A stretch of DNA of 64,000 nt from an uncultured Coriobacteriia bacterium (GTDB taxonomy: Bacteria; Actinomycetota; Coriobacteriia; Coriobacteriales; QAMH01): positions 1,448-65,447 of the forward strand of contig CATLBX010000002.1 in NCBI GenBank assembly GCA_949879855.1, read 5' to 3'. Below, piece after piece: positions 28,182 to 35,364 of this stretch. The position numbers and the translations under genes were made by a program. Under the pieces are notes generated by a model. It was not told where the DNA came from and ran no database searches. It saw nothing but the letters and a program-made list of their open reading frames with translations. Position 1 is the stretch's first letter. Each line of letters begins with the position of its first letter.

Positions 28182-29255
28182 ATGGGATGCAAGATCGTCG
28201 GACATGGTAAAGCCCTACCGGAGCTCATCGTGAGCAATGACGACATGGCGAAAGTCGTCGACACCAGCGACGAGTGGATCGTCGAGCGCACGGGCATCCA
28301 CAACCGCCGCATCGCCGTGGAAGAAACGACCACGAGCCTTGGTACGGATGCGGCACGCAACGCCCTTGCCGACGCTGGCCTCGCAGCCGATGATATCGAC
28401 CTCATCGTCTGCATGACCATCTCGGCTGACGCCGTGGTGCCCTCCCAGGCCGCCCTCGTCAAGATGCAGCTGGGCGCGAACAACGCCGTCGCCTTTGACC
28501 TGAACGCCGCGTGCACGGGATGCATCTACGGCATGGACGTGGCCTCCACGATGATCGAGGCATCGGTTGCCAGCGAGGACGGAAGTGGCATCGGGCATAG
28601 GCGCAACGCGATGCGCCGTGCGCTCGTCGTGGGTGCCGAGCGCCTCTCGCGCATCGTCGACTGGACCGACCGCGCCACCTGCGTGCTCTTTGGCGATGGC
28701 GCCGGTGCCGTCGTGCTCGAGTGGGACGACAACGCGCCGGGCATCATGGCGAGCGTCCTGAAGAACACCGACGACGAGGCGCTGTGTCTGACCGTCGACG
28801 CGAACCACGACCTGCGCACCTTCCCCTTTGGCGATGGCGTGCGCATGGAGAGCCTGGGCGAGGTCATGGACATCCGCAACGACGACGGCGAGTTCTGGCC
28901 GCAGCTGCCCTGCATCCGAATGCACGGCCAGCGCGTCTTCAAGTTTGCCACGGCCGCCATCGTGGAGGCAGGCCGCGAGGTGTGCGAGCGCGCGGGCATC
29001 AAATTCGAGGACGTTGCCTGCGTCGTCCCCCACCAGGCCAACGACCGCATCATCCGCTTCGCGGCCAAGAAGCTCGGCGTGCCCTACGAGCGTTGGCAGG
29101 TCTCCATCGGCGAGACCGGCAACACGAGCGCGTCGAGCGTGCTCATGGCGCTGCATGATGCCTACGAGTCCGGGCGCATCCAGCCGGGCGACTACGTGAT
29201 GTGCGTGGGCTTTGGTGGCGGCCTCACAAGCGGCGCGCTGGTGTTCGAAGCGTAG
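28182..29255 (+). CDS. fabH: 3-oxoacyl-ACP synthase III
   Basis: WIVERTGI, AACTG, FGDGAGA, PHQAN, GNTSASS, GFGGGLT. Confidence 0.96.
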   Translation: MGCKIVGHGKALPELIVSNDDMAKVVDTSDEWIVERTGIHNRRIAVEETTTSLGTDAARNALADAGLAADDIDLIVCMTISADAVVPSQAALVKMQLGANNAVAFDLNAACTGCIYGMDVASTMIEASVASEDGSGIGHRRNAMRRALVVGAERLSRIVDWTDRATCVLFGDGAGAVVLEWDDNAPGIMASVLKNTDDEALCLTVDANHDLRTFPFGDGVRMESLGEVMDIRNDDGEFWPQLPCIRMHGQRVFKFATAAIVEAGREVCERAGIKFEDVACVVPHQANDRIIRFAAKKLGVPYERWQVSIGETGNTSASSVLMALHDAYESGRIQPGDYVMCVGFGGGLTSGALVFEA

Positions 29256-29279
29256 GGGACTGACGAGAAGTCGCAACCA

Positions 29280-29312
29280 AACAAAAATGTTCAGCGACTG
29301 AACATTTTTGTT
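29280..29312. terminator. Perfect AT-rich hairpin after fabH, at the left edge of the accessory islet
   Basis: AACAAAAATGTTCAG-CGA-CTGAACATTTTTGTT. Confidence 0.55.
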
Positions 29313-29367
29313 CAATGACTGAAATAAATTTGTTCAGTCGATAAGAGTCCTCTTCTGACCAGGGAAA

Positions 29368-29428
29368 TGCGGCGATTAGCACCTTATTCGCCGCACATTT
29401 TGCGGTGATTATCTTGCTATTCGCCGCA
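29368..29428. promoter_or_regulatory. Two tandem 28-bp palindromes upstream of the Fic gene (candidate operators)
   Basis: TGCGGCGA-N12-TCGCCGCA (29368-29395) and TGCGGTGA-N12-TCGCCGCA (29401-29428). Confidence 0.55.
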
Positions 29429-29448
29429 TCGACATCTAAAATCCTCGT

Positions 29449-30861
29449 ATGTACCTATACGAAGAACAGGACTGGACCAGCTTCACATGGGATGACGAGG
29501 TCATTATCCCGCTGCTTTCCAGCGTGCGTTTTCTGCAGGGCTCCTTTCTGGCGCGCATCGAATCCCTTGGTTTCGAAACAAGTTCGCAGATAGAAGTCGT
29601 TGCCGTCTCGAATGAGGTCGTCGCTTCCTCGCAAATCGAGGGTGTCAAATTCGATACCGAGGAAGTGCGCTCGTCGGTGGCCAGGAATTTGGGAATCGAT
29701 CGCCCTGGTGCTCCAAAACCAACAGCCGCCGTGGACGGAGCAGTCTCAATCATCATTAACGCGACGCAAGATTACGAAAAGCCCCTAACCTACGAACGCC
29801 TCTGCGCTTGGCATGAGGCGCTGTTCCCCGCTGGCTATGGCGAGCTTTACAAGATTGACGTTGGGCAATATCGCAAAGGTCCCATGAGCGTGGTGAGCGG
29901 CTCCATCGGACATGAGAAGACGCATTACGAGGCTCCCGCGGCAGGTCGTGTTCCTGCCCTTATGGAGGATTTCCTCGAGTGGTTCAATGACGGCGGCATG
30001 GAGCCCCTAATCAAGGCGGCGATTGCGCACCTCTGGTTCCTGACAATCCATCCTTTCGATGACGGAAACGGCCGCATTGCCCGCGCGATTACCGAAATGC
30101 TGCTAGCGCGTTCCGATCATAGTTCACGCAGATACTACAGTCTCGCTTCTCACATCCTTGCACACAGGAAGGACTATTACGTTGCAATTGAGACAGCCGA
30201 AAAGGGATCTAGCGACGTGACCACCTGGATAGCCTGGTTCCTCAAGGCGCTACATGGCGCACTGGAGGAGAGCGAGGCATCAGTATCCGAAGTGCTTCAA
30301 CGGGATGCATGGTGGCATAGGGCAGCAGGCATAAAGCTCAACAAACGCCAGAAAAAGATGCTCCAACTTCTGCTGGATGATTTTCAGGGCAAGCTCACAT
30401 CCGGAAAGTGGGCGAAGATCTGCAAGGTCTCGAGCGACACGGCCCTGCGTGATATCAATGATCTTGTTAAGAAGGGTCTCCTCAAACGCGACGAGAGCCG
30501 CGGCGGAAGAAGCACGTCGTATTTGCTGGTTTCGGAAAATGGGGTGGTGGCTAACACGTCGTTGACTCAACAGCGTGTTATTAAGTCAATCGCCGACATA
30601 GCCGCACGCTTTCCGGGAATCGAACGCGCGTGGTTGTTTGGCTCTTTCGCGCGAAACCAGCAAACACCGGATAGCGACATAGATATCAGGCTTGAGCTCA
30701 AGAAGAACGCGAGGTTTAACCTGCATGACCTCGCCTCCTTCTCTAAAATGATAGAGCAGGCGACTGGCAAAGAGTGCGACGTGATCACATCGCGAACGAT
30801 AAAGAGCGAGTCGCTTGCACAGGCTATCGAACGAGACGGAGTATGTGCGTATGAGCGCTAA
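29449..30861 (+). CDS. DUF4172-Fic-wHTH protein fused to a C-terminal minimal nucleotidyltransferase (MNT)
   Basis: HPFDDGNGRIAR; CKVSSDTALRDI wHTH; then AWLFGSFARNQQTPDSDIDI. Confidence 0.85.
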   Translation: MYLYEEQDWTSFTWDDEVIIPLLSSVRFLQGSFLARIESLGFETSSQIEVVAVSNEVVASSQIEGVKFDTEEVRSSVARNLGIDRPGAPKPTAAVDGAVSIIINATQDYEKPLTYERLCAWHEALFPAGYGELYKIDVGQYRKGPMSVVSGSIGHEKTHYEAPAAGRVPALMEDFLEWFNDGGMEPLIKAAIAHLWFLTIHPFDDGNGRIARAITEMLLARSDHSSRRYYSLASHILAHRKDYYVAIETAEKGSSDVTTWIAWFLKALHGALEESEASVSEVLQRDAWWHRAAGIKLNKRQKKMLQLLLDDFQGKLTSGKWAKICKVSSDTALRDINDLVKKGLLKRDESRGGRSTSYLLVSENGVVANTSLTQQRVIKSIADIAARFPGIERAWLFGSFARNQQTPDSDIDIRLELKKNARFNLHDLASFSKMIEQATGKECDVITSRTIKSESLAQAIERDGVCAYER

Positions 30862-31228
30862 GAAGAGCGAGCTCGGGCGGATCCAGGAAGTGTATGACAT
30901 CGTCATAAAGACGCGCGCGCAGATAGCGAATACGCAGTTCACCAAGGAGCGCTTCATTAACCCACCTAATGACGCAGATGATCTTATGGCGGAAGGAATA
31001 CTTAATCGTGTTCTCCGGCTTACTGAAGAGCTGGGCAGCATAGAAGACGCTACTGCACAGAAGCACTCGCTTAACGATAAAGGTGCTCGCGGCATCCGCA
31101 ATCGGCTTGCACACGCCTATGGCGAGGTTGATCGCGAGGTCGTATGGGACGTCATTGAAAATGACTTCGATGAAATCCTCGAAGGCTGCAAGGCATACTG
31201 TGAGGATATGGGAGTGGAGATCGAGTGA
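30851..31228 (+). CDS. HEPN/DUF86 (HepT-like) RNase toxin
   Basis: IRNRLAHAYGEVD (RX4HXY), VWDVI; overlaps the MNT stop. Confidence 0.88.
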   Translation: MSAKKSELGRIQEVYDIVIKTRAQIANTQFTKERFINPPNDADDLMAEGILNRVLRLTEELGSIEDATAQKHSLNDKGARGIRNRLAHAYGEVDREVVWDVIENDFDEILEGCKAYCEDMGVEIE

Positions 31229-31345
31229 GGCTCGCAGCTTTGCGGGATATCAACAACATCATTGCGAAGAGGGACGCTGAAAAGAGAAGCATGCCATATC
31301 TGCTGGTGAGAAGACCAGTCGTCCCCCTCAATCTATAATGCCCTT

Positions 31346-32251
31346 ATGCACATGAAGAGAAAACAGCACTATCTTCCTAAGTTTTATCTTAAGCACTTTG
31401 CTATGCCGAATAACCAGCTTTGGTGCTACAGACGCTCCGCAAACCGTTTTATAAGCAATATTAATGACATCTGTCGTCACGGAAGCCTTTATGAGGCAAG
31501 AAGCTCGAGTTCCCATTGTCCTGGCAAATTCGTAAACCCAAACTATATTGAAAATGCATTGAGCAAGAAGGAGGCGGGGCTTGCCTGCGATTATGAATAC
31601 TTTTTAGACTCCTGTACTTGCCAAGATTTTTCTAATCCTCGCTTCCAGAAATCACTCAGTACAATCTCTCAGCTACCTGGATTCTTTATTGAGCGCCAGC
31701 CGTATTCAATAGAAAACTATCGTGAAATGTCCAACGAGCTCGCCAGCGAATTCAATGACAGGGACGTTCTTTCGGAAAACGATTTGTCGCTTTGCAAAAA
31801 ACAAGGCTATGAAAACGAATTGCCTGCGATGATTCATCACTATATTGTGCAGGAAACAATTATAAATTCAGATAAGAGTAATCTTCCGGTCCACAGATTT
31901 TCGAAAGCCCTGCAATCGCTCAGCCTTTTTGTTGTCGAGGCTCCAGTCGCAACACAGTTTATTTCTTGTTCTTGTCCTGTATGCATCACTCTGGAAACGA
32001 ATGACTATACAAGGATACGTCAAGCGTTTTTTCCTTTATCTAATAGATACTGTGCGGTGTTCACCAAAGGAGAAAGCTCTTGGGGAGGAACAAGCATGGC
32101 AACACGCAGTGATGTGGCTACCATAAATCGACAGCTTCTTTTAGGCGCACCTTTATGGACCACAGCATTTTCGCGAAACGAATTCCCCCTAGCAAAAGCG
32201 CAGACAGCCTATGAGCTCTCTGGTTGTCCAACACCCTCACTGTGTTCCTAG
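31346..32251 (+). CDS. DUF4238 domain protein
   Basis: KQHYLPKFYLKHF N-terminal motif, FFPLSNRY; AT-rich. Confidence 0.75.
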   Translation: MHMKRKQHYLPKFYLKHFAMPNNQLWCYRRSANRFISNINDICRHGSLYEARSSSSHCPGKFVNPNYIENALSKKEAGLACDYEYFLDSCTCQDFSNPRFQKSLSTISQLPGFFIERQPYSIENYREMSNELASEFNDRDVLSENDLSLCKKQGYENELPAMIHHYIVQETIINSDKSNLPVHRFSKALQSLSLFVVEAPVATQFISCSCPVCITLETNDYTRIRQAFFPLSNRYCAVFTKGESSWGGTSMATRSDVATINRQLLLGAPLWTTAFSRNEFPLAKAQTAYELSGCPTPSLCS

Positions 32252-32429
32252 TCCCCAGTCAAACTGCGACAAACTGATATTTCTTCACAAACCATATGAT
32301 TAACGCAGCAAACCGGCATTTGAAGCTACATACGTGGGGTTTCGTCGAATGCGTTTATGCACCAGAAAAATATGATACGTTTAGGCGCAACATACATAAG
32401 TATTACTTAAAACCGCTAGGGAACTCGTC

Positions 32430-35357
32430 ATGCAGCATTCCATGAACATCGATAGGTCAACGAACGAGCTTGAATACAGCGCCGTCGATTTTGCCGAAAG
32501 CCTAAAAGCGAGCTTCATTGGCGCAGACAAGCCCGCTGATGAGCGCTATGCTCCTCGCATTCTGACCAACGACAAAAGTTCTGGAACCGACGTTCTCTCA
32601 ATCCTGAAACGCGAACTCGTCGATTGTGTCTCCTTTGATTTCTCCGTTGCCTTTGTCACAGCTGGTGGCATCCAGATATTGGTCGATATTCTCCGCATGA
32701 TGGAGACTCGCGGCATACCCGGAAGAATCCTTGTTTCGACATACTTAAATTTCAACGATCCAGCGGCCCTCTCCAAACTGCTTGAATTTGGCAACATTGA
32801 AACACGTGTCTACCAGGGCGAAATGCATGCCAAAGGTTACTTCTTCAATAAAGAGCAGCTTTCGACAATCGTGATAGGGAGTTCGAATCTCACGCAAAAG
32901 GCGCTCACCTGCAACAAAGAATGGAACGTGTTGTTCCGGTCCTTTGGTGATGGAGAAATGCTCGGTCAAGTACGCAGGGAGTTTGAGAACCTTTGGGATT
33001 CCGATGACACCGCCTTGCTGACAGATTCCTGGATCGATAAATACCGTGACTATCTGGCTGCAAGTACGCTCGACGCGAACCCAAAGCAGATACAGCAAAA
33101 GGCGTTCTCTATAGAAGAATCATCAGCGCTATCTCGGCCCCGTTCTACTAACGAAATTGTTCCCAACAAGATGCAAGCCCAGGCCCTTGAAGCTCTGGCA
33201 GCACTTCATGGCAGAAACGAACATCGTGCGCTTCTCGTTTCGGCAACGGGCACAGGCAAGACGTATCTTTCTGCGCTCGACGTAAGAGCGTGCCATCCAA
33301 AACGCGTTTTGTTCATTGCCCATCGCAAGCGCATTCTTTCAGCCTCCATGAAGAGCTTCGAACGCGTGCTCGGTTCAAGGTACACATACGGCATCTACGG
33401 GGAAAGTTCGTATTGCAAAGACACGACCTGCGTCTTCGCCATGGTCACAGCTCTTTCGAAGCACCTTGAGGAATTCGACCCGCATGAATTCGACTACGTC
33501 ATCATTGACGAAGCACACAGGACAGGTGCACAGAGCTATCAAAAGATACTCGACTATTTTGAGCCCCGGTTCTTTTTGGGAATGACTGCAACGCCCTCAC
33601 GTACAGATGGCTACGACGTGTATGGCCTATTCAATCATGTAATCGCCTATCGAATCACTCTGCAAGATGCGCTCGATAATGAAATGCTTGCTTCTTTTCA
33701 CTACTTTGGAATCGCCGACCTGGACATTGAGGATGAAGAAACAGATGATTTCTCGCTCTTCGCAAAGCTAACCTCGGAGGAACGAGTACGTCATGTGGCC
33801 GCTATGATCGAGGAGTATTCTGTGCTTAAAGAAGGTAGGCGCGGCCTCATCTTTTGCTCTCGAAACGAAGAAGCAGCCGAACTTTCCAAAAAGCTCAACG
33901 ACATGGGCTATCGAACGTGCGCTATCTCTGGAGAAACCTCTGAAGATTCGCGAAACAAGACCATTGCTCAGCTAGAATCAGGTGCACTCGAGTACATCTT
34001 GTCCGTGGACATTCTCAATGAGGGTATTGACATCCCCTCCCTCAACCAAATCATCATGCTGCGACGCACAGATTCGACAATTGTATTTACGCAGCAGCTT
34101 GGCCGCGGGCTTCGCAAGACAGCCGACAAGGAGTACACGCTCGTCCTTGATTTCATAGGAAATTACCAAAACAACTTCCTGATCCCCATGGCCCTTTCAG
34201 GCGATAGGACATACAACAAAGACACGCTTCGAAAAGTTGTCAAAGAAGGAAGCACGATTATCCCAGGCGCCTCTACAATCTCCTTTGATGAGATATCTGA
34301 AAAACGCATCTTCAGAGCTCTCGAAGAGGGCCGCTTCAGCGACACGAAGCTCATACGAGGCGAATACGAAAACCTGAAGCAGATTCTAGGACGTATCCCG
34401 ACCCTCATTGATTTTGATGAAAACGAGGCCATGGACCCTATGATCCTCATCAGGAAATTCGGATCCTACGCGGCTTTCCTGCAAAAGTATGAAGAAGACT
34501 ATGCTGGAAAATTCGACACCAGAAAGCTTAATGCGCTCAAGTTCATCTCTACGAAGATTGCCACCGGAAAACGCGCTGAGGACCTTATTGTGCTCAAGAA
34601 GCTCGTTGAAAAGAACGACACAAGCCACTGCACATATGAGCCTCGAGACAAAATGGCGGCAGAGACCATATCAGTCGCCCGCATGCTCGGAGGCCAGTAT
34701 TCGAAGACGGGGGAAGAGCTCACCGTTTTCGAGAATGGGATATTTGTTCTTGCACCATGGTTTGCAGGGGCCTTGTCAGACATTTCTTTCCGTGCAGCCG
34801 TTCTTGATGTCATTGCGTTTGGATTACGTCGAAACGCTCAGCTCTATTCGAAGCTTTATAAAGACACGGACTTCGTTTTGTACGAAAAGTACACGCGCGA
34901 GGAAATATGTCGTCTGCTGCGCTGGGAAAAGGAACCGAATTATCAGAATATCGGCGGCTACTTCTACGATGAAAGGACCAACACCTTCCCAGTGTTCATC
35001 GATTATGAAAAAGATCCGACTATCAGCATCACTACACAATATGAAGACAGATTCATATCGGAAAACAGGCTCATAGCTATCTCGAAAAGCAAGCGCACGC
35101 TGGAGTCGCCCGAGATTAAGCGCCTCATGAACAATACGACTAATAAGATGCGCTGCTTTCTGTTTATGCGCAAGAACAAGGACGATGCGGACCAGGGCAA
35201 GGAGTTCTACTTCCTTGGCGAGATGCATCCAACAGGGGAGTTTAAAGAAATCACCATGGCCGACGGGGCCACAAGGGCTGTCGAAATAGGATATGAGCTC
35301 GAAGAGCCGGTGCGCGCAGATCTATACGATTACCTGACGACGAACCTGGATGAGTAG
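32430..35357 (+). CDS. PLD nuclease-SF2 helicase-DUF3427 protein, SauUSI-like type IV restriction enzyme
   Basis: MHAKGY...GSSNLT, SATGTGKT, DEAH, NEGIDIP, QQLGRGLR, C-terminal YTREEI domain; 975 aa. Confidence 0.88.
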   Translation: MQHSMNIDRSTNELEYSAVDFAESLKASFIGADKPADERYAPRILTNDKSSGTDVLSILKRELVDCVSFDFSVAFVTAGGIQILVDILRMMETRGIPGRILVSTYLNFNDPAALSKLLEFGNIETRVYQGEMHAKGYFFNKEQLSTIVIGSSNLTQKALTCNKEWNVLFRSFGDGEMLGQVRREFENLWDSDDTALLTDSWIDKYRDYLAASTLDANPKQIQQKAFSIEESSALSRPRSTNEIVPNKMQAQALEALAALHGRNEHRALLVSATGTGKTYLSALDVRACHPKRVLFIAHRKRILSASMKSFERVLGSRYTYGIYGESSYCKDTTCVFAMVTALSKHLEEFDPHEFDYVIIDEAHRTGAQSYQKILDYFEPRFFLGMTATPSRTDGYDVYGLFNHVIAYRITLQDALDNEMLASFHYFGIADLDIEDEETDDFSLFAKLTSEERVRHVAAMIEEYSVLKEGRRGLIFCSRNEEAAELSKKLNDMGYRTCAISGETSEDSRNKTIAQLESGALEYILSVDILNEGIDIPSLNQIIMLRRTDSTIVFTQQLGRGLRKTADKEYTLVLDFIGNYQNNFLIPMALSGDRTYNKDTLRKVVKEGSTIIPGASTISFDEISEKRIFRALEEGRFSDTKLIRGEYENLKQILGRIPTLIDFDENEAMDPMILIRKFGSYAAFLQKYEEDYAGKFDTRKLNALKFISTKIATGKRAEDLIVLKKLVEKNDTSHCTYEPRDKMAAETISVARMLGGQYSKTGEELTVFENGIFVLAPWFAGALSDISFRAAVLDVIAFGLRRNAQLYSKLYKDTDFVLYEKYTREEICRLLRWEKEPNYQNIGGYFYDERTNTFPVFIDYEKDPTISITTQYEDRFISENRLIAISKSKRTLESPEIKRLMNNTTNKMRCFLFMRKNKDDADQGKEFYFLGEMHPTGEFKEITMADGATRAVEIGYELEEPVRADLYDYLTTNLDE

Positions 35358-35364
35358 ATATAAG

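What the first reader, a model, noticed from the sequence alone, without database searches (positions are those of the whole stretch)
29449..31228. Fic-wHTH-MNT fusion coupled to a HEPN toxin: two AMP-transferase folds in one putative antitoxin
Seen: the DUF4172-Fic-wHTH part (canonical HPFDDGNGRIAR) does not stop after GGRSTSY but continues into a complete MNT domain (GSFAR...DSDID). It overlaps a HEPN gene with RNRLAHAY. Known: MntA neutralises HepT by AMPylating the Tyr of RX4HXY, and Fic domains AMPylate other targets. Inference: a tripartite toxin-antitoxin or defence module in which Fic and the HTH may regulate the MNT-HEPN pair. The alternative is a recent stop-codon loss joining two genes (in-frame GTG codons near 30544-30549).
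Basis: partly seen in the sequence, partly recalled or inferred. Interest (0 to 1): 0.7.

Follow-up and report, generated by a model that had tools for sequence, protein, structure and literature searches.

The report
Fic enzyme fused to MntA antitoxin
A gut bacterium carries a real, long-maintained gene fusion in which a DNA-binding Fic AMP-transferase has replaced the usual DNA-binding head of the MntA antitoxin of a HepT/MntA toxin-antitoxin pair; it is a rare new variant of known systems, made by gene shuffling in a defence island.

Summary
Window 29449-30861 (+) is one 470-aa ORF: DUF4172, Fic (HPFDDGNGRIAR, inhibitory SSQIEG), wHTH, a 13-residue linker, then a complete MNT domain (GSX10DXD). 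It overlaps by 11 nt a 125-aa HepT gene with RX4HXY.

It is not an artefact and not a recent stop-codon loss. Independent rat and mouse gut metagenome contigs carry it. At least five fused alleles exist, with different linkers that all stay in frame. Synonymous sites between alleles are saturated while pN stays at 0.10-0.17.

The architecture is rare. Nothing else among the best 120 clusters of a 5.8-billion-cluster search, or the best 150 of 1.84 billion representatives, shows it.

The closest free MNT relatives (up to 87% identity) are 182-185-aa proteins with an RHH-like head. With HepT, they sit in the same fabH-adjacent defence hot spot. The fusion therefore swapped that head for a whole CbFic2/SoFic-type Fic-wHTH protein.

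Most likely working: MNT still neutralises HepT. The Fic-wHTH part supplies dimerisation and binding to a conserved double palindrome in its own promoter. Direct Fic-HepT cross-talk (writer/eraser) is possible but untested.

I rate it a new variant of a known kind, of moderate interest.

The parts
29367..29429 (+). Two 28-29-nt palindromic boxes (TGCGGyGAwTA..TAwTCGCCGCA; 29367-29395 and 29401-29429). Putative operator of the Fic-wHTH protein.
   Evidence: the repeat finder D1/I1/I6. Conserved upstream of every Fic gene of this clade, fused or not, much better than the coding sequence. SoFic and CccR bind palindromic own-promoter DNA (bioRxiv 10.64898/2026.07.09.737422; PMC10628234). Binding here is inferred.
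29414..29442 (+). Promoter-like site: -35 TTGCTA, 17-nt spacer, -10 TAAAAT ending 6 nt before the ATG. This implies a leaderless mRNA.
   Evidence: Consensus scan. The -10 region (TAGAAT or TAAAAT) is conserved in most relatives, TAGACT in L011. No transcript data were available.
29449..30861 (+). Fused gene, 470 aa: DUF4172-Fic-wHTH-linker-MNT.
29626..29643 (+). Inhibitory-helix motif SSQIEG (S60-G65; Glu64). Class II Fic signature (S/T)xxxE(G/N).
   Evidence: Read from the sequence. Aligned with TSAIEG of CbFic2 in the 8CIL alignment. Motif definition from PMC10628234. S60, S61, I63, E64 and G65 are invariant in A1.
30049..30084 (+). Fic catalytic motif HPFDDGNGRIAR (H201-R212).
   Evidence: Read from the sequence. 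Nearly all positions invariant in A1. Identical core to CbFic2 HPFDDGNGRIGR.
30334..30528 (+). Winged helix-turn-helix domain (about res 296-360), ending ...GGRSTSYLL.
   Evidence: Pfam HTH_DeoR 300-347. The AF2 model has helices 299-341 and strands 345-348 and 357-360. Superposes on the wHTH of CbFic2 8CIL. Unfused relatives stop 2-18 residues after GRSTSY.
30529..30567 (+). Junction and linker (res 361-373, VSENGVVANTSLT). Flexible and variable between fused alleles, but always in frame.
   Evidence: The only stretch of the model with pLDDT below 50 is res 364-371. There are five different linker versions, including a one-codon indel. DNA similarity to unfused Fic loci ends at 30516-30531; blastn similarity to RHH-MNT loci starts at 30593.
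30568..30858 (+). MNT (MntA-type minimal nucleotidyltransferase) domain, res 374-470. GS-X10-DXD lies at 30640-30684 (G398, S399, D410, D412).
   Evidence: Pfam Polbeta and NTP_transf_2. NCBIfam MntA_antitoxin 7.4e-11, below its cut-off. Foldseek: MNT antitoxin 8XEO TMt 0.77, rmsd 2.2, and HEPN-MNT complex 8XEH_E. 87% identical to the MNT part of free RHH-MNT protein P0121.
30851..31228 (+). hepT, a 125-aa HEPN RNase toxin gene. It overlaps the fused gene by 11 nt. RX4HXY = R83..H88, Y90 at 31097-31120.
   Evidence: Pfam HepT-like 6.7e-9. NCBIfam HepT_toxin 1.3e-7, below its cut-off. 94% aa identical to the HepT that follows free RHH-MNT in L015, with the same 11-nt overlap.
31237..31308 (+). 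Degraded remnant of a Fic wHTH 3' end (ALRDINNIIAKRDAEKRSMPYLLV) directly downstream of hepT. A scar of the recombination history.
   Evidence: Local alignment to Fic res 332-363. Homologous remnants follow hepT in L015/L016, and a long one with an internal stop follows it in L018.

Best explanation
This is a genuine gene fusion maintained by selection.

[quoted passage not shown] The hepT gene is kept in the ancestral 11-nt overlap.

Origin: the site is a variable defence hot spot next to fabH. There, an RHH-MntA/HepT cassette was recombined onto the 3' end of the resident Fic gene. The cassette lost its own promoter, its RHH-like DNA-binding head and a long helix.

Proposed working:
(1) Shown: both halves are intact and under purifying selection.
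(2) Inferred: the operon is transcribed, probably leaderless, from the Fic promoter. The Fic-wHTH part dimerises through its N-terminal helix and binds the conserved double palindrome in that promoter. It thereby takes over the dimerising and autoregulatory role of the lost RHH head.
(3) Inferred from family knowledge: the tethered MNT domains oligo-AMPylate Tyr90 of HepT and keep the RNase off.
(4) Inferred: the Fic domain keeps its own autoinhibited AMPylation/deAMPylation activity, as in SoFic-type abortive-infection proteins.
For: Architecture:
- Domains and motifs are as listed in the observation check.
- AF2 mean pLDDT is 86.7, and only linker residues 364-371 are disordered.
- The Fic-wHTH half superposes on CbFic2 8CIL (TMt 0.89). 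The MNT half superposes on MNT antitoxin 8XEO (TMt 0.77). By sequence, 8CIL matches at E 1.3e-87.

The fusion is real and old:
- It is present on 7 independent contigs and in 4 rodent gut metagenome runs.
- Fused alleles exist in other genomes (L001, L019-22, L041-45) with five linker versions, all in frame.
- Window versus L019: pS is about 0.68-0.71 (saturated), while pN is 0.14 for the Fic part and 0.12 for the tail. The Jukes-Cantor ratio is 0.06-0.09.

The head was replaced:
- The nearest free MNT proteins are 182-185 aa.
- They have a strand-helix-helix N-terminus (weak CopG/RHH Pfam hits; AF2), then a long helix and a disordered linker, then MNT.
- They are followed by a 125-aa HepT with the same overlap, in the same fabH hot spot.

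Recombination scars:
- Remnants of the Fic promoter lie upstream of the RHH-MNT genes.
- Remnants of the Fic 3' end lie downstream of hepT in the window, L015 and L018.
- Fused L019 and unfused L024 are 97-100% identical over the first 600 nt of Fic and unrelated after ...GRSTxYxLV.

Operator:
- The two palindromic boxes and the -10 region are conserved upstream of all Fic alleles.
- SoFic and CccR bind their own promoters as dimers.

HepT:
- It is intact, with RX4HXY, in the window lineage and in L042. A working antitoxin is therefore needed there.

Internal start:
- There is no conserved in-frame start codon in the linker.

Precedent:
- The PADLOC candidate family PDC-M05A matches res 298-413, i.e. 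wHTH plus the start of MNT. This hints that HTH-MNT antitoxin-like proteins exist elsewhere.
Against: - No biochemical or transcript data exist for this locus (no RNA run).
- DNA binding, dimerisation, AMPylation of HepT and HepT toxicity are all inferred from homologues.
- NCBIfam equivalog cut-offs for MntA, HepT and SoFic are not reached.
- The RHH assignment of the lost head rests on weak hits (best E 0.0089) and a medium-confidence model.
- The fused gene persists in several relatives where hepT is truncated (21 or 62 codons) or replaced by other cargo. The MNT part can therefore outlive its toxin, and the coupling may be incidental.
- MNT cores of fused alleles are not monophyletic. The window is closest to unfused L015, and L019/42/43 are closest to unfused L018. 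A single origin requires later recombination; two independent fusions are not excluded.
- The fusion is confined to one narrow clade.
Confidence: 0.6

Rival explanations
1. Writer-eraser switch. The two AMP-transferase folds act on the same substrate. MNT AMPylates HepT Tyr90 (off). The Fic domain belongs to a class shown to deAMPylate as a DNA-induced dimer, and it removes the AMP (on) or modifies MNT or HepT when a signal such as foreign DNA is sensed. The fusion would then be a built-in trigger for a type VII toxin.
For: - CbFic2, the closest solved homologue (E 1.3e-87, TMt 0.89), is both an AMPylase and a deAMPylase. The switch is made by DNA-induced dimerisation and depends on the inhibitory Glu (PMC10628234).
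- SoFic also deAMPylates (abstract).
- Glu64 and the Fic motif are conserved.
- The flexible linker would let the Fic site reach an MNT-bound HepT.
- The papers I read describe no route by which AMPylated HepT is reactivated.
Against: - No evidence of co-evolution. Fic homologues elsewhere have no MNT or HepT neighbours.
- Most alleles of the same Fic gene in the same hot spot are unfused, with unrelated cargo.
- The fused gene survives without HepT.
- HepT carries an oligo-AMP chain in the studied systems, which is not a known Fic substrate.
- The origin by cargo shuffling explains the fusion without any functional link.
Confidence: 0.12
2. Tolerated accident. The fusion is a neutral by-product of cargo exchange at the hot spot. 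Fic and MNT work independently (or the MNT part is an orphan on its way to decay), and the head swap has no regulatory meaning beyond co-expression.
For: - The hot spot shows rampant replacement of cargo. Breakpoints lie inside or just after the Fic gene.
- hepT has been truncated independently at different codons.
- The architecture is extremely rare.
Against: - The tail stays open and under purifying selection (pN/pS 0.16-0.40) in every fused allele compared, including the HepT-less L019 and L043.
- Linkers differ but never break the frame.
- Where HepT is intact, the only MNT in the 64-kb window is the fused one. It must therefore be functional if HepT is toxic.
- The cassette's own promoter and DNA-binding head are gone, so expression has to come from the Fic promoter.
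Confidence: 0.2
3. Split products. A free MNT antitoxin is made from the fused ORF by internal translation initiation (GTG 30544/30547 or TTG 30562) or by proteolysis in the linker, so the functional units are the usual separate proteins.
For: - In-frame GTG GTG and TTG codons lie in the linker, behind a G-rich stretch.
- The linker is predicted to be disordered and so could be cleaved.
Against: - These start-like codons are absent from the other fused alleles (GCG GCG, GCG TCG, GCG ACG; TTA for TTG).
- No Shine-Dalgarno-like sequence is conserved there.
- Isolated MNT domains can be unstable (PMC13000451).
Confidence: 0.05
4. Artefact or very recent stop-codon loss between two adjacent genes.
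For: The Fic family normally ends 2-18 residues after GRSTSY.
Against: - Independent contigs and runs agree.
- Fused alleles have saturated synonymous divergence and different linkers.
- No relative has adjacent separate Fic and MNT genes.
- Free MNT relatives have an extra N-terminal head that is missing here.
Confidence: 0.01

Closest known systems
Type VII toxin-antitoxin system HepT/MntA (Shewanella oneidensis SO_3166/SO_3165; PMC7641770)
   Same: - MNT domain with GSX10DXD.
- A HEPN gene with RX4HXY immediately downstream and overlapping.
- The MNT fold matches solved MNT antitoxins (8XEO, 8XEH).
   Different: - The antitoxin domain is the C-terminal fifth of a 470-aa protein whose remainder is a complete Fic-wHTH enzyme.
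- Canonical MntA is under 150 aa and has no DNA-binding domain.
- NCBIfam equivalog cut-offs are not reached.
RHH-MNT/HepT modules of the same clade (P0121, P0122, P0132; loci L015-L018)
   Same: - MNT 67-87% identical and HepT up to 94% identical.
- The same 11-nt overlap and the same fabH hot spot.
   Different: Those proteins have an RHH-like head plus a long helix (about 75 aa) and their own promoter. In the window these are replaced by the Fic-wHTH protein and the Fic promoter.
CbFic2 of Coxiella burnetii (PDB 8CIL; PMC10628234), and the related SoFic, EcSofic and CccR
   Same: - DUF4172 with inhibitory helix, Fic motif HPFDDGNGRIxR and C-terminal wHTH, over res 2-359 (E 1.3e-87; TMt 0.89).
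- PADLOC SoFic defence model 1.1e-50.
- Palindromes in its own promoter, as reported for CccR and SoFic.
   Different: - None of those proteins carries a further domain after the wHTH.
- Sequence identity to SoFic itself is low (18-20% in structural alignment). The NCBIfam SoFic score is 56.8 against a cut-off of 550.
FhepTA, fused MNT-HEPN proteins of Shewanella (PMC13000451)
   Same: A type VII component that occurs both fused and unfused in close relatives. The junction is a short linker.
   Different: There the antitoxin is fused to its own toxin. Here the antitoxin is fused to an unrelated enzyme, and the toxin remains a separate gene.
PADLOC phage-defence candidate PDC-M05A
   Same: The profile matches res 298-413 (E 1.9e-8), i.e. 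the wHTH and the first part of MNT. This suggests an HTH-MNT two-domain relative.
   Different: About 200 aa, without the Fic part. I did not inspect members of that family.

Membership tests
Type VII TA HepT/MntA | Antitoxin is an MNT-fold nucleotidyltransferase with GSX10DXD | tested here: met
   G398-S399, then ten residues, then D410-I411-D412. Pfam Polbeta 49.3 bits against a cut-off of 26.9. Fold matches 8XEO and 8XEH_E.
Type VII TA HepT/MntA | Toxin is a HEPN protein with RX4HXY | tested here: met
   R83-N-R-L-A-H88-A-Y90 at 31097-31120. Pfam HepT-like 35.9 bits against 23.5.
Type VII TA HepT/MntA | mntA directly upstream of hepT in one operon | tested here: met
   11-nt overlap (30851-30861). 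The same arrangement is seen in the unfused relatives L015 and L018.
Type VII TA HepT/MntA | Curated NCBIfam equivalog scores (MntA_antitoxin, HepT_toxin; cut-off 60 bits each) | tested here: not met
   41.9 and 31.5 bits. These are divergent members of the superfamilies rather than equivalogs of the Shewanella proteins.
Type VII TA HepT/MntA | HepT is toxic and is neutralised by MntA-dependent oligo-AMPylation of the Tyr | not testable with these tools
   Needs expression and mass spectrometry.
Class II Fic proteins with wHTH (CbFic2/SoFic/CccR type) | Fic motif HxFx(D/E)GNGRxxR | tested here: met
   HPFDDGNGRIAR, res 201-212.
Class II Fic proteins with wHTH (CbFic2/SoFic/CccR type) | Inhibitory helix (S/T)xxxE(G/N) N-terminal to the Fic core, within DUF4172 | tested here: met
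   SSQIEG, res 60-65, aligned to TSAIEG of CbFic2.
Class II Fic proteins with wHTH (CbFic2/SoFic/CccR type) | C-terminal winged HTH and overall fold | tested here: met
   HTH_DeoR 6.3e-6. Foldseek 8CIL_A: TMt 0.89, rmsd 2.6 over 365 columns.
Class II Fic proteins with wHTH (CbFic2/SoFic/CccR type) | Dimer binds its own promoter; AMPylation and deAMPylation activity | not testable with these tools
   Only indirect evidence: conserved double palindrome within 85 nt upstream of the ATG.
SoFic anti-phage defence system (PADLOC / DefenseFinder sense) | Match to the SoFic defence model; protection against phage | tested here: inconclusive
   PADLOC SoFic 1.1e-50 over res 51-358, but the NCBIfam SoFic equivalog scores 56.8 against 550. 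The defence phenotype is untested.
DNA-binding (RHH) MntA antitoxins of this clade | N-terminal RHH-like head before the MNT domain | tested here: not met
   The window protein has Fic-wHTH in place of the head. Homology to P0121 and P0122 begins in the linker.
Fused MNT-HEPN (FhepTA) | MNT and HEPN in one polypeptide | tested here: not met
   Stop codon TAA at 30859-30861. HepT is a separate overlapping ORF in another frame.

The most novel reading that the evidence does not exclude
The fusion is a self-contained writer-eraser switch for a type VII toxin. MNT writes oligo-AMP on HepT Tyr90. The tethered class II Fic domain is switched by DNA binding and dimerisation, as in CbFic2, and erases the AMP (or AMPylates MNT or HepT). 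This couples release of the HEPN RNase to a DNA-sensed signal such as phage infection. It would be the first described trigger mechanism for HepT/MntA systems.
Probability: 0.12. Interest if true: 0.85.

Novelty: new variant of a known kind. Interest (0 to 1): 0.5.

Why it matters

This locus shows three things.

- In one gut Coriobacteriia clade the MntA antitoxin normally carries a DNA-binding head. That contrasts with the textbook statement that MNT antitoxins have none.
- That head can be exchanged for a complete, catalytically intact Fic-wHTH enzyme.
- The exchange happened by recombination inside a defence hot spot, and the intermediates are still visible.

The locus is a natural experiment for asking what the N-terminal module of an enzymatic antitoxin has to provide. 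It also places an AMP writer beside a potential AMP eraser, which makes the reactivation question directly testable.

If the two halves merely coexist, it remains a clean example of how defence-island shuffling creates new multidomain proteins.

Tried and rejected
1. RNA evidence. No RNA run holding the locus could be listed. The TSS, the leaderless start and the size of the product therefore remain untested.

2. Other Fic-MNT fusions.
- The exhaustive representative search showed none among its best 150 hits.
- The longer Fic proteins found there carry other tails, such as KfrB, or have no further Pfam domain.
- The scan of GTDB species representatives found only unfused relatives.

3. A general Fic / MNT-HepT association. 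No MNT or HepT lies within 6 kb of the distant Fic homologues L026-L040.

4. Sequence search of HepT against the PDB gave nothing meaningful.

5. The RHH assignment from sequence alone was weak: the PDB profile search found nothing and the Pfam hits had E >= 0.0066. It was supported only in topology by AF2.

6. The first MAFFT alignment for folding (A2) misplaced the MNT-only sequences. It was rebuilt as A3 after local tests.

7. The internal-start idea was rejected because the codons are not conserved.

8. A simple 'single fusion, then vertical descent' was rejected. The MNT cores are mosaic, and the window's Fic 5' part is equally distant (about 72% nt) from fused and unfused alleles.

9. 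Literature searches for a described Fic-MNT or Fic-HEPN fusion found none.
Full report
1. THE OBSERVATION

Window 29449-30861 (+) is a single uninterrupted ORF of 470 codons.

Pfam places four units in it: DUF4172 (res 2-83), Fic (112-219), a DeoR-type HTH (300-347) and an MNT/Pol-beta nucleotidyltransferase domain (380-470). All score above their gathering thresholds.

- HPFDDGNGRIAR at 30049-30084;
- GS-X10-DID at 30640-30684;
- RNRLAHAY (RX4HXY) at 31097-31120 in the next gene.

I add the class II inhibitory motif SSQIEG (res 60-65, 29626-29643).

The HEPN gene is best read from ATG 30851 (125 aa, as in all relatives) to 31228. It overlaps the fused ORF by 11 nt.

2. IS THE FUSION REAL?

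A 470-aa protein differing from the window's at one residue is encoded on seven independently assembled contigs. Contigs from four rat and mouse gut metagenome runs span the junction with no indel. The only difference is C>T at 30499, which gives R351C. The fusion is not an assembly or sequencing artefact.

3. IS IT RECENT?

No. Fused alleles of 472 aa occur in other genomes at the same position after fabH (L001, L019-L022, L041-L045).

Five different linker sequences are seen, one with a one-codon indel. All are in frame.

Between the window and L019, synonymous sites are saturated (pS 0.68-0.71). Non-synonymous differences are 0.14 in the Fic-wHTH part and 0.12 in the linker+MNT tail, giving a Jukes-Cantor ratio of 0.06-0.09. 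Both halves have therefore evolved as coding sequence for a long time.

No start-like codon is conserved in the linker.

4. HOW RARE IS IT?

In the 5.8-billion-cluster search, only the window's cluster and one other (P0002) among the 120 clusters listed show the fused architecture. The other 118 Fic relatives listed (49-78% identity) are 328-407 aa. The twelve aligned end 2-18 residues after GRSTSY.

The exhaustive search of 1.84 billion representatives showed no hit covering the MNT part among its best 150. The longer Fic proteins found there have unrelated tails.

A scan of GTDB species representatives found only unfused relatives. The nearest is an uncultured Coriobacteriaceae MAG. Named homologues are Eggerthellaceae: Adlercreutzia, Xiamenia, Gordonibacter, Arabiibacter.

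5. WHERE THE MNT HALF COMES FROM

This is the key result. The closest relatives of residues 363-470 (67-87% identity) are not minimal MNTs. They are 182-185-aa proteins.

Their extra N-terminal ~75 residues read ...RKALSLRVP-helix-helix, followed by a long helix and a disordered linker. Pfam gives only weak but mutually consistent ribbon-helix-helix hits (CopG_antitoxin, RHH_1, BrnA, DUF6364). AF2 gives the strand-helix-helix topology.

These RHH-MNT genes are followed by a 125-aa HepT with the same 11-nt overlap. They lie in the same genomic hot spot, directly after fabH (L015-L018). HepT of L015 is 94% identical to the window's.

Homology between the window protein and these proteins begins in the linker. 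So the fusion did not join two neighbouring genes by losing a stop codon. It replaced the RHH-like head, and the cassette's own promoter, with a complete Fic-wHTH protein.

6. THE HOT SPOT AND THE SCARS

The interval between fabH (28182-29255) and a NUDIX/radical-SAM pair (from 35365) has lower G+C (0.43-0.55 against 0.60-0.69 in the flanks). In relatives it holds different defence cargo:
- GmrSD;
- MutH-like plus Dcm;
- a SinI restriction-modification system;
- an HATPase/Z1/DUF4420/AIPR set;
- an ATPase with RloB.

In the window the cargo is the fused gene, hepT, a DUF4238 gene and a 975-aa PLD-helicase-DUF3427 protein. That protein matches PADLOC's type IV methyl-directed restriction enzyme at 1e-199.

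In many alleles the Fic gene is the first gene after fabH, and it acts as the left homology arm. Fused L019 and unfused L024 are 97-100% identical over the first 600 nt of Fic, 84% identical over the last 120 nt, and unrelated after ...GRSTxYxLV.

Three kinds of scar record past exchanges between Fic and the cassette:
(a) Parts of the Fic promoter palindromes lie upstream of the RHH-MNT genes in L015-L018.
(b) A degraded Fic wHTH 3' end lies directly downstream of hepT in the window (31237-31308), in L015/L016 and, with an internal stop, in L018.
(c) The MNT domains are mosaic. The linker and first helix are shared among fused alleles (15 of 20 identical, against 10 of 20 to L015). The MNT core of the window is closest to unfused L015 (89% aa), and that of L019/L042/L043 is closest to unfused L018 (80-82%).

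I read this as one origin of the junction followed by gene conversion of the MNT core and hepT from co-circulating cassettes. Two independent fusions cannot be excluded. The window's Fic 5' part is equally distant (about 72% nt) from fused and unfused alleles. Its wHTH part is slightly closer to fused ones (0.79 against 0.75).

7. THE FIC HALF

Residues 2-359 match CbFic2 of Coxiella burnetii (PDB 8CIL) at E 1.3e-87. The model superposes on it with TMt 0.89.

CbFic2 has the same DUF4172 / inhibitory helix / Fic / wHTH layout. It dimerises through the first DUF4172 helix and binds DNA through the wHTH. It is an AMPylase as a monomer and a deAMPylase as a DNA-induced dimer; the deAMPylase activity depends on the inhibitory Glu (PMC10628234).

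Relatives with the same layout behave as follows:
- CccR autorepresses its promoter at palindromes.
- SoFic binds the first 100 bp upstream of its own start codon as a dimer, and AMPylates and deAMPylates EF-Tu.
- EcSofic is an abortive-infection toxin that needs dimerisation and its C-terminal domain (PMC12249575).

PADLOC's SoFic model matches the window protein at 1.1e-50. The NCBIfam SoFic equivalog cut-off is far from reached.

Upstream of the window gene lie two 28-29-nt palindromic boxes (29367-29429). They overlap a promoter-like site whose -10 ends 6 nt before the ATG, so the mRNA would be leaderless. The boxes are conserved upstream of every Fic allele, fused or not, far better than the coding sequence. 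That is what an autoregulatory operator would look like. Binding itself is inferred.

8. STRUCTURE

AF2 (mean pLDDT 86.7) predicts two well-folded units. The wHTH ends with strand 357-360, and the MNT begins with helix 374-385. They are joined by the only disordered stretch, residues 364-371.

The MNT unit matches solved MNT antitoxins: 8XEO with TMt 0.77 and rmsd 2.2, and chain E of the HEPN-MNT complex 8XEH.

9. HOW IT MOST LIKELY WORKS

Shown: an intact Fic-wHTH and an intact MNT are tethered and under purifying selection. hepT is intact and translationally coupled in the window lineage and in L042. The cassette's own promoter and DNA-binding head are absent.

Inferred from family knowledge: MNT oligo-AMPylates HepT Tyr90 (GSX10DXD acting on RX4HXY; PMC7641770). 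The Fic-wHTH part dimerises and binds the double palindrome. It thus provides the dimerisation and autoregulation that the RHH head provided, and places mntA-hepT under the Fic promoter. Fic keeps its own autoinhibited activity.

PADLOC candidate PDC-M05A matches residues 298-413, which hints that HTH-MNT proteins exist elsewhere. I put 0.6 on this model.

10. RIVALS

(a) Writer-eraser cross-talk between Fic and HepT or MNT. This is attractive because CbFic2-type enzymes deAMPylate, and because the papers read describe no reactivation route for HepT. There is, however, no co-occurrence outside this clade, and the fused gene persists without HepT. Probability 0.12.

(b) A tolerated accident with no regulatory meaning. 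Probability 0.2.

(c) Split products made by internal initiation or cleavage. Probability 0.05.

(d) Artefact or recent stop loss. Refuted.

11. A CAVEAT THAT CUTS BOTH WAYS

In several relatives hepT is truncated: 21 codons in L001 and L019-22, and 62 codons in L041, whose fused protein is identical to that of L042, which has intact hepT. In others it is replaced (L043-45). The 472-aa fused ORF is intact in all of them.

This is the usual order of toxin-antitoxin decay. It shows that the three parts are not an obligatory unit. It also shows that the fused gene is stable as the hot spot's anchor gene.

12. VERDICT

This is a new variant of known kinds: a type VII HepT/MntA pair whose antitoxin has exchanged a DNA-binding head for a CbFic2/SoFic-type Fic-wHTH enzyme.

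Interest is moderate (0.5). The architecture is rare and evolutionarily well documented, and it makes the question of how HepT is switched back on directly testable. The evidence points to origin by defence-island shuffling rather than to a designed three-part machine.

Noticed in passing
window 29256-35364; loci L009, L012, L015-L019, L023, L024, L043: The interval between fabH and a NUDIX/radical-SAM gene pair is a variable, low-GC defence hot spot. Across related genomes its cargo differs completely: GmrSD, MutH-like+Dcm, SinI RM, HATPase/Z1/DUF4420/AIPR, ATPase+RloB, an nSTAND-like ATPase, and a type IV restriction enzyme.
   Followed up: partly
window 31237-31308: A degraded copy of the last ~30 codons of a Fic wHTH (ALRDINNIIAKRDAEKRSMPYLLV) lies directly after hepT. 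Similar remnants follow hepT in L015/L016 and L018 (5874-6182, with an internal stop).
   Followed up: yes
window 29280-29340: A perfect 15-nt inverted repeat (AACAAAAATGTTCAG cga CTGAACATTTTTGTT) with further TGTTCAG copies lies just after fabH. A similar palindrome lies upstream of the RHH-MNT gene in L015/L016. In L019, L001, L023 and L012 this place holds tandem CGGATTTTCGGTAAT-type repeats instead. It could be a terminator, a recombination site or an operator; this is unresolved.
   Followed up: partly
window 31346-32251: A DUF4238 gene (301 aa; Pfam 3.5e-18) of unknown function. DUF4238 genes recur among otherwise different cargo sets of the same hot spot (L012, L013, L019). Gene callers start it at different codons, giving 282-301 aa.
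   Followed up: no
window 32430-35357: The 975-aa PLD-nuclease / SF2 helicase / DUF3427 protein matches PADLOC's type IV methyl-directed restriction enzyme model end to end (E 9.7e-199).
   Followed up: partly
window 30499: C>T polymorphism (Arg351Cys, in the wing of the wHTH just before GGRSTSY). It is present in the contigs of the two rat gut runs that cover the site and in cluster representative P0001.
   Followed up: no
L001 3481-3546; L019 after 7419; L041 6400-6580; L043 3664-3710: hepT has been truncated independently at different points (about 14, 21 and 62 codons) in relatives that keep the fused Fic-MNT gene intact. L041 and L042 encode the identical fused protein without and with intact hepT.
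   Followed up: yes
window 28182-30861 vs L019: The Fic gene is far more diverged between the two genomes (dS about 1.8) than the adjacent fabH (dS 0.46). This indicates old, exchanged alleles at the hot spot rather than vertical descent.
   Followed up: partly
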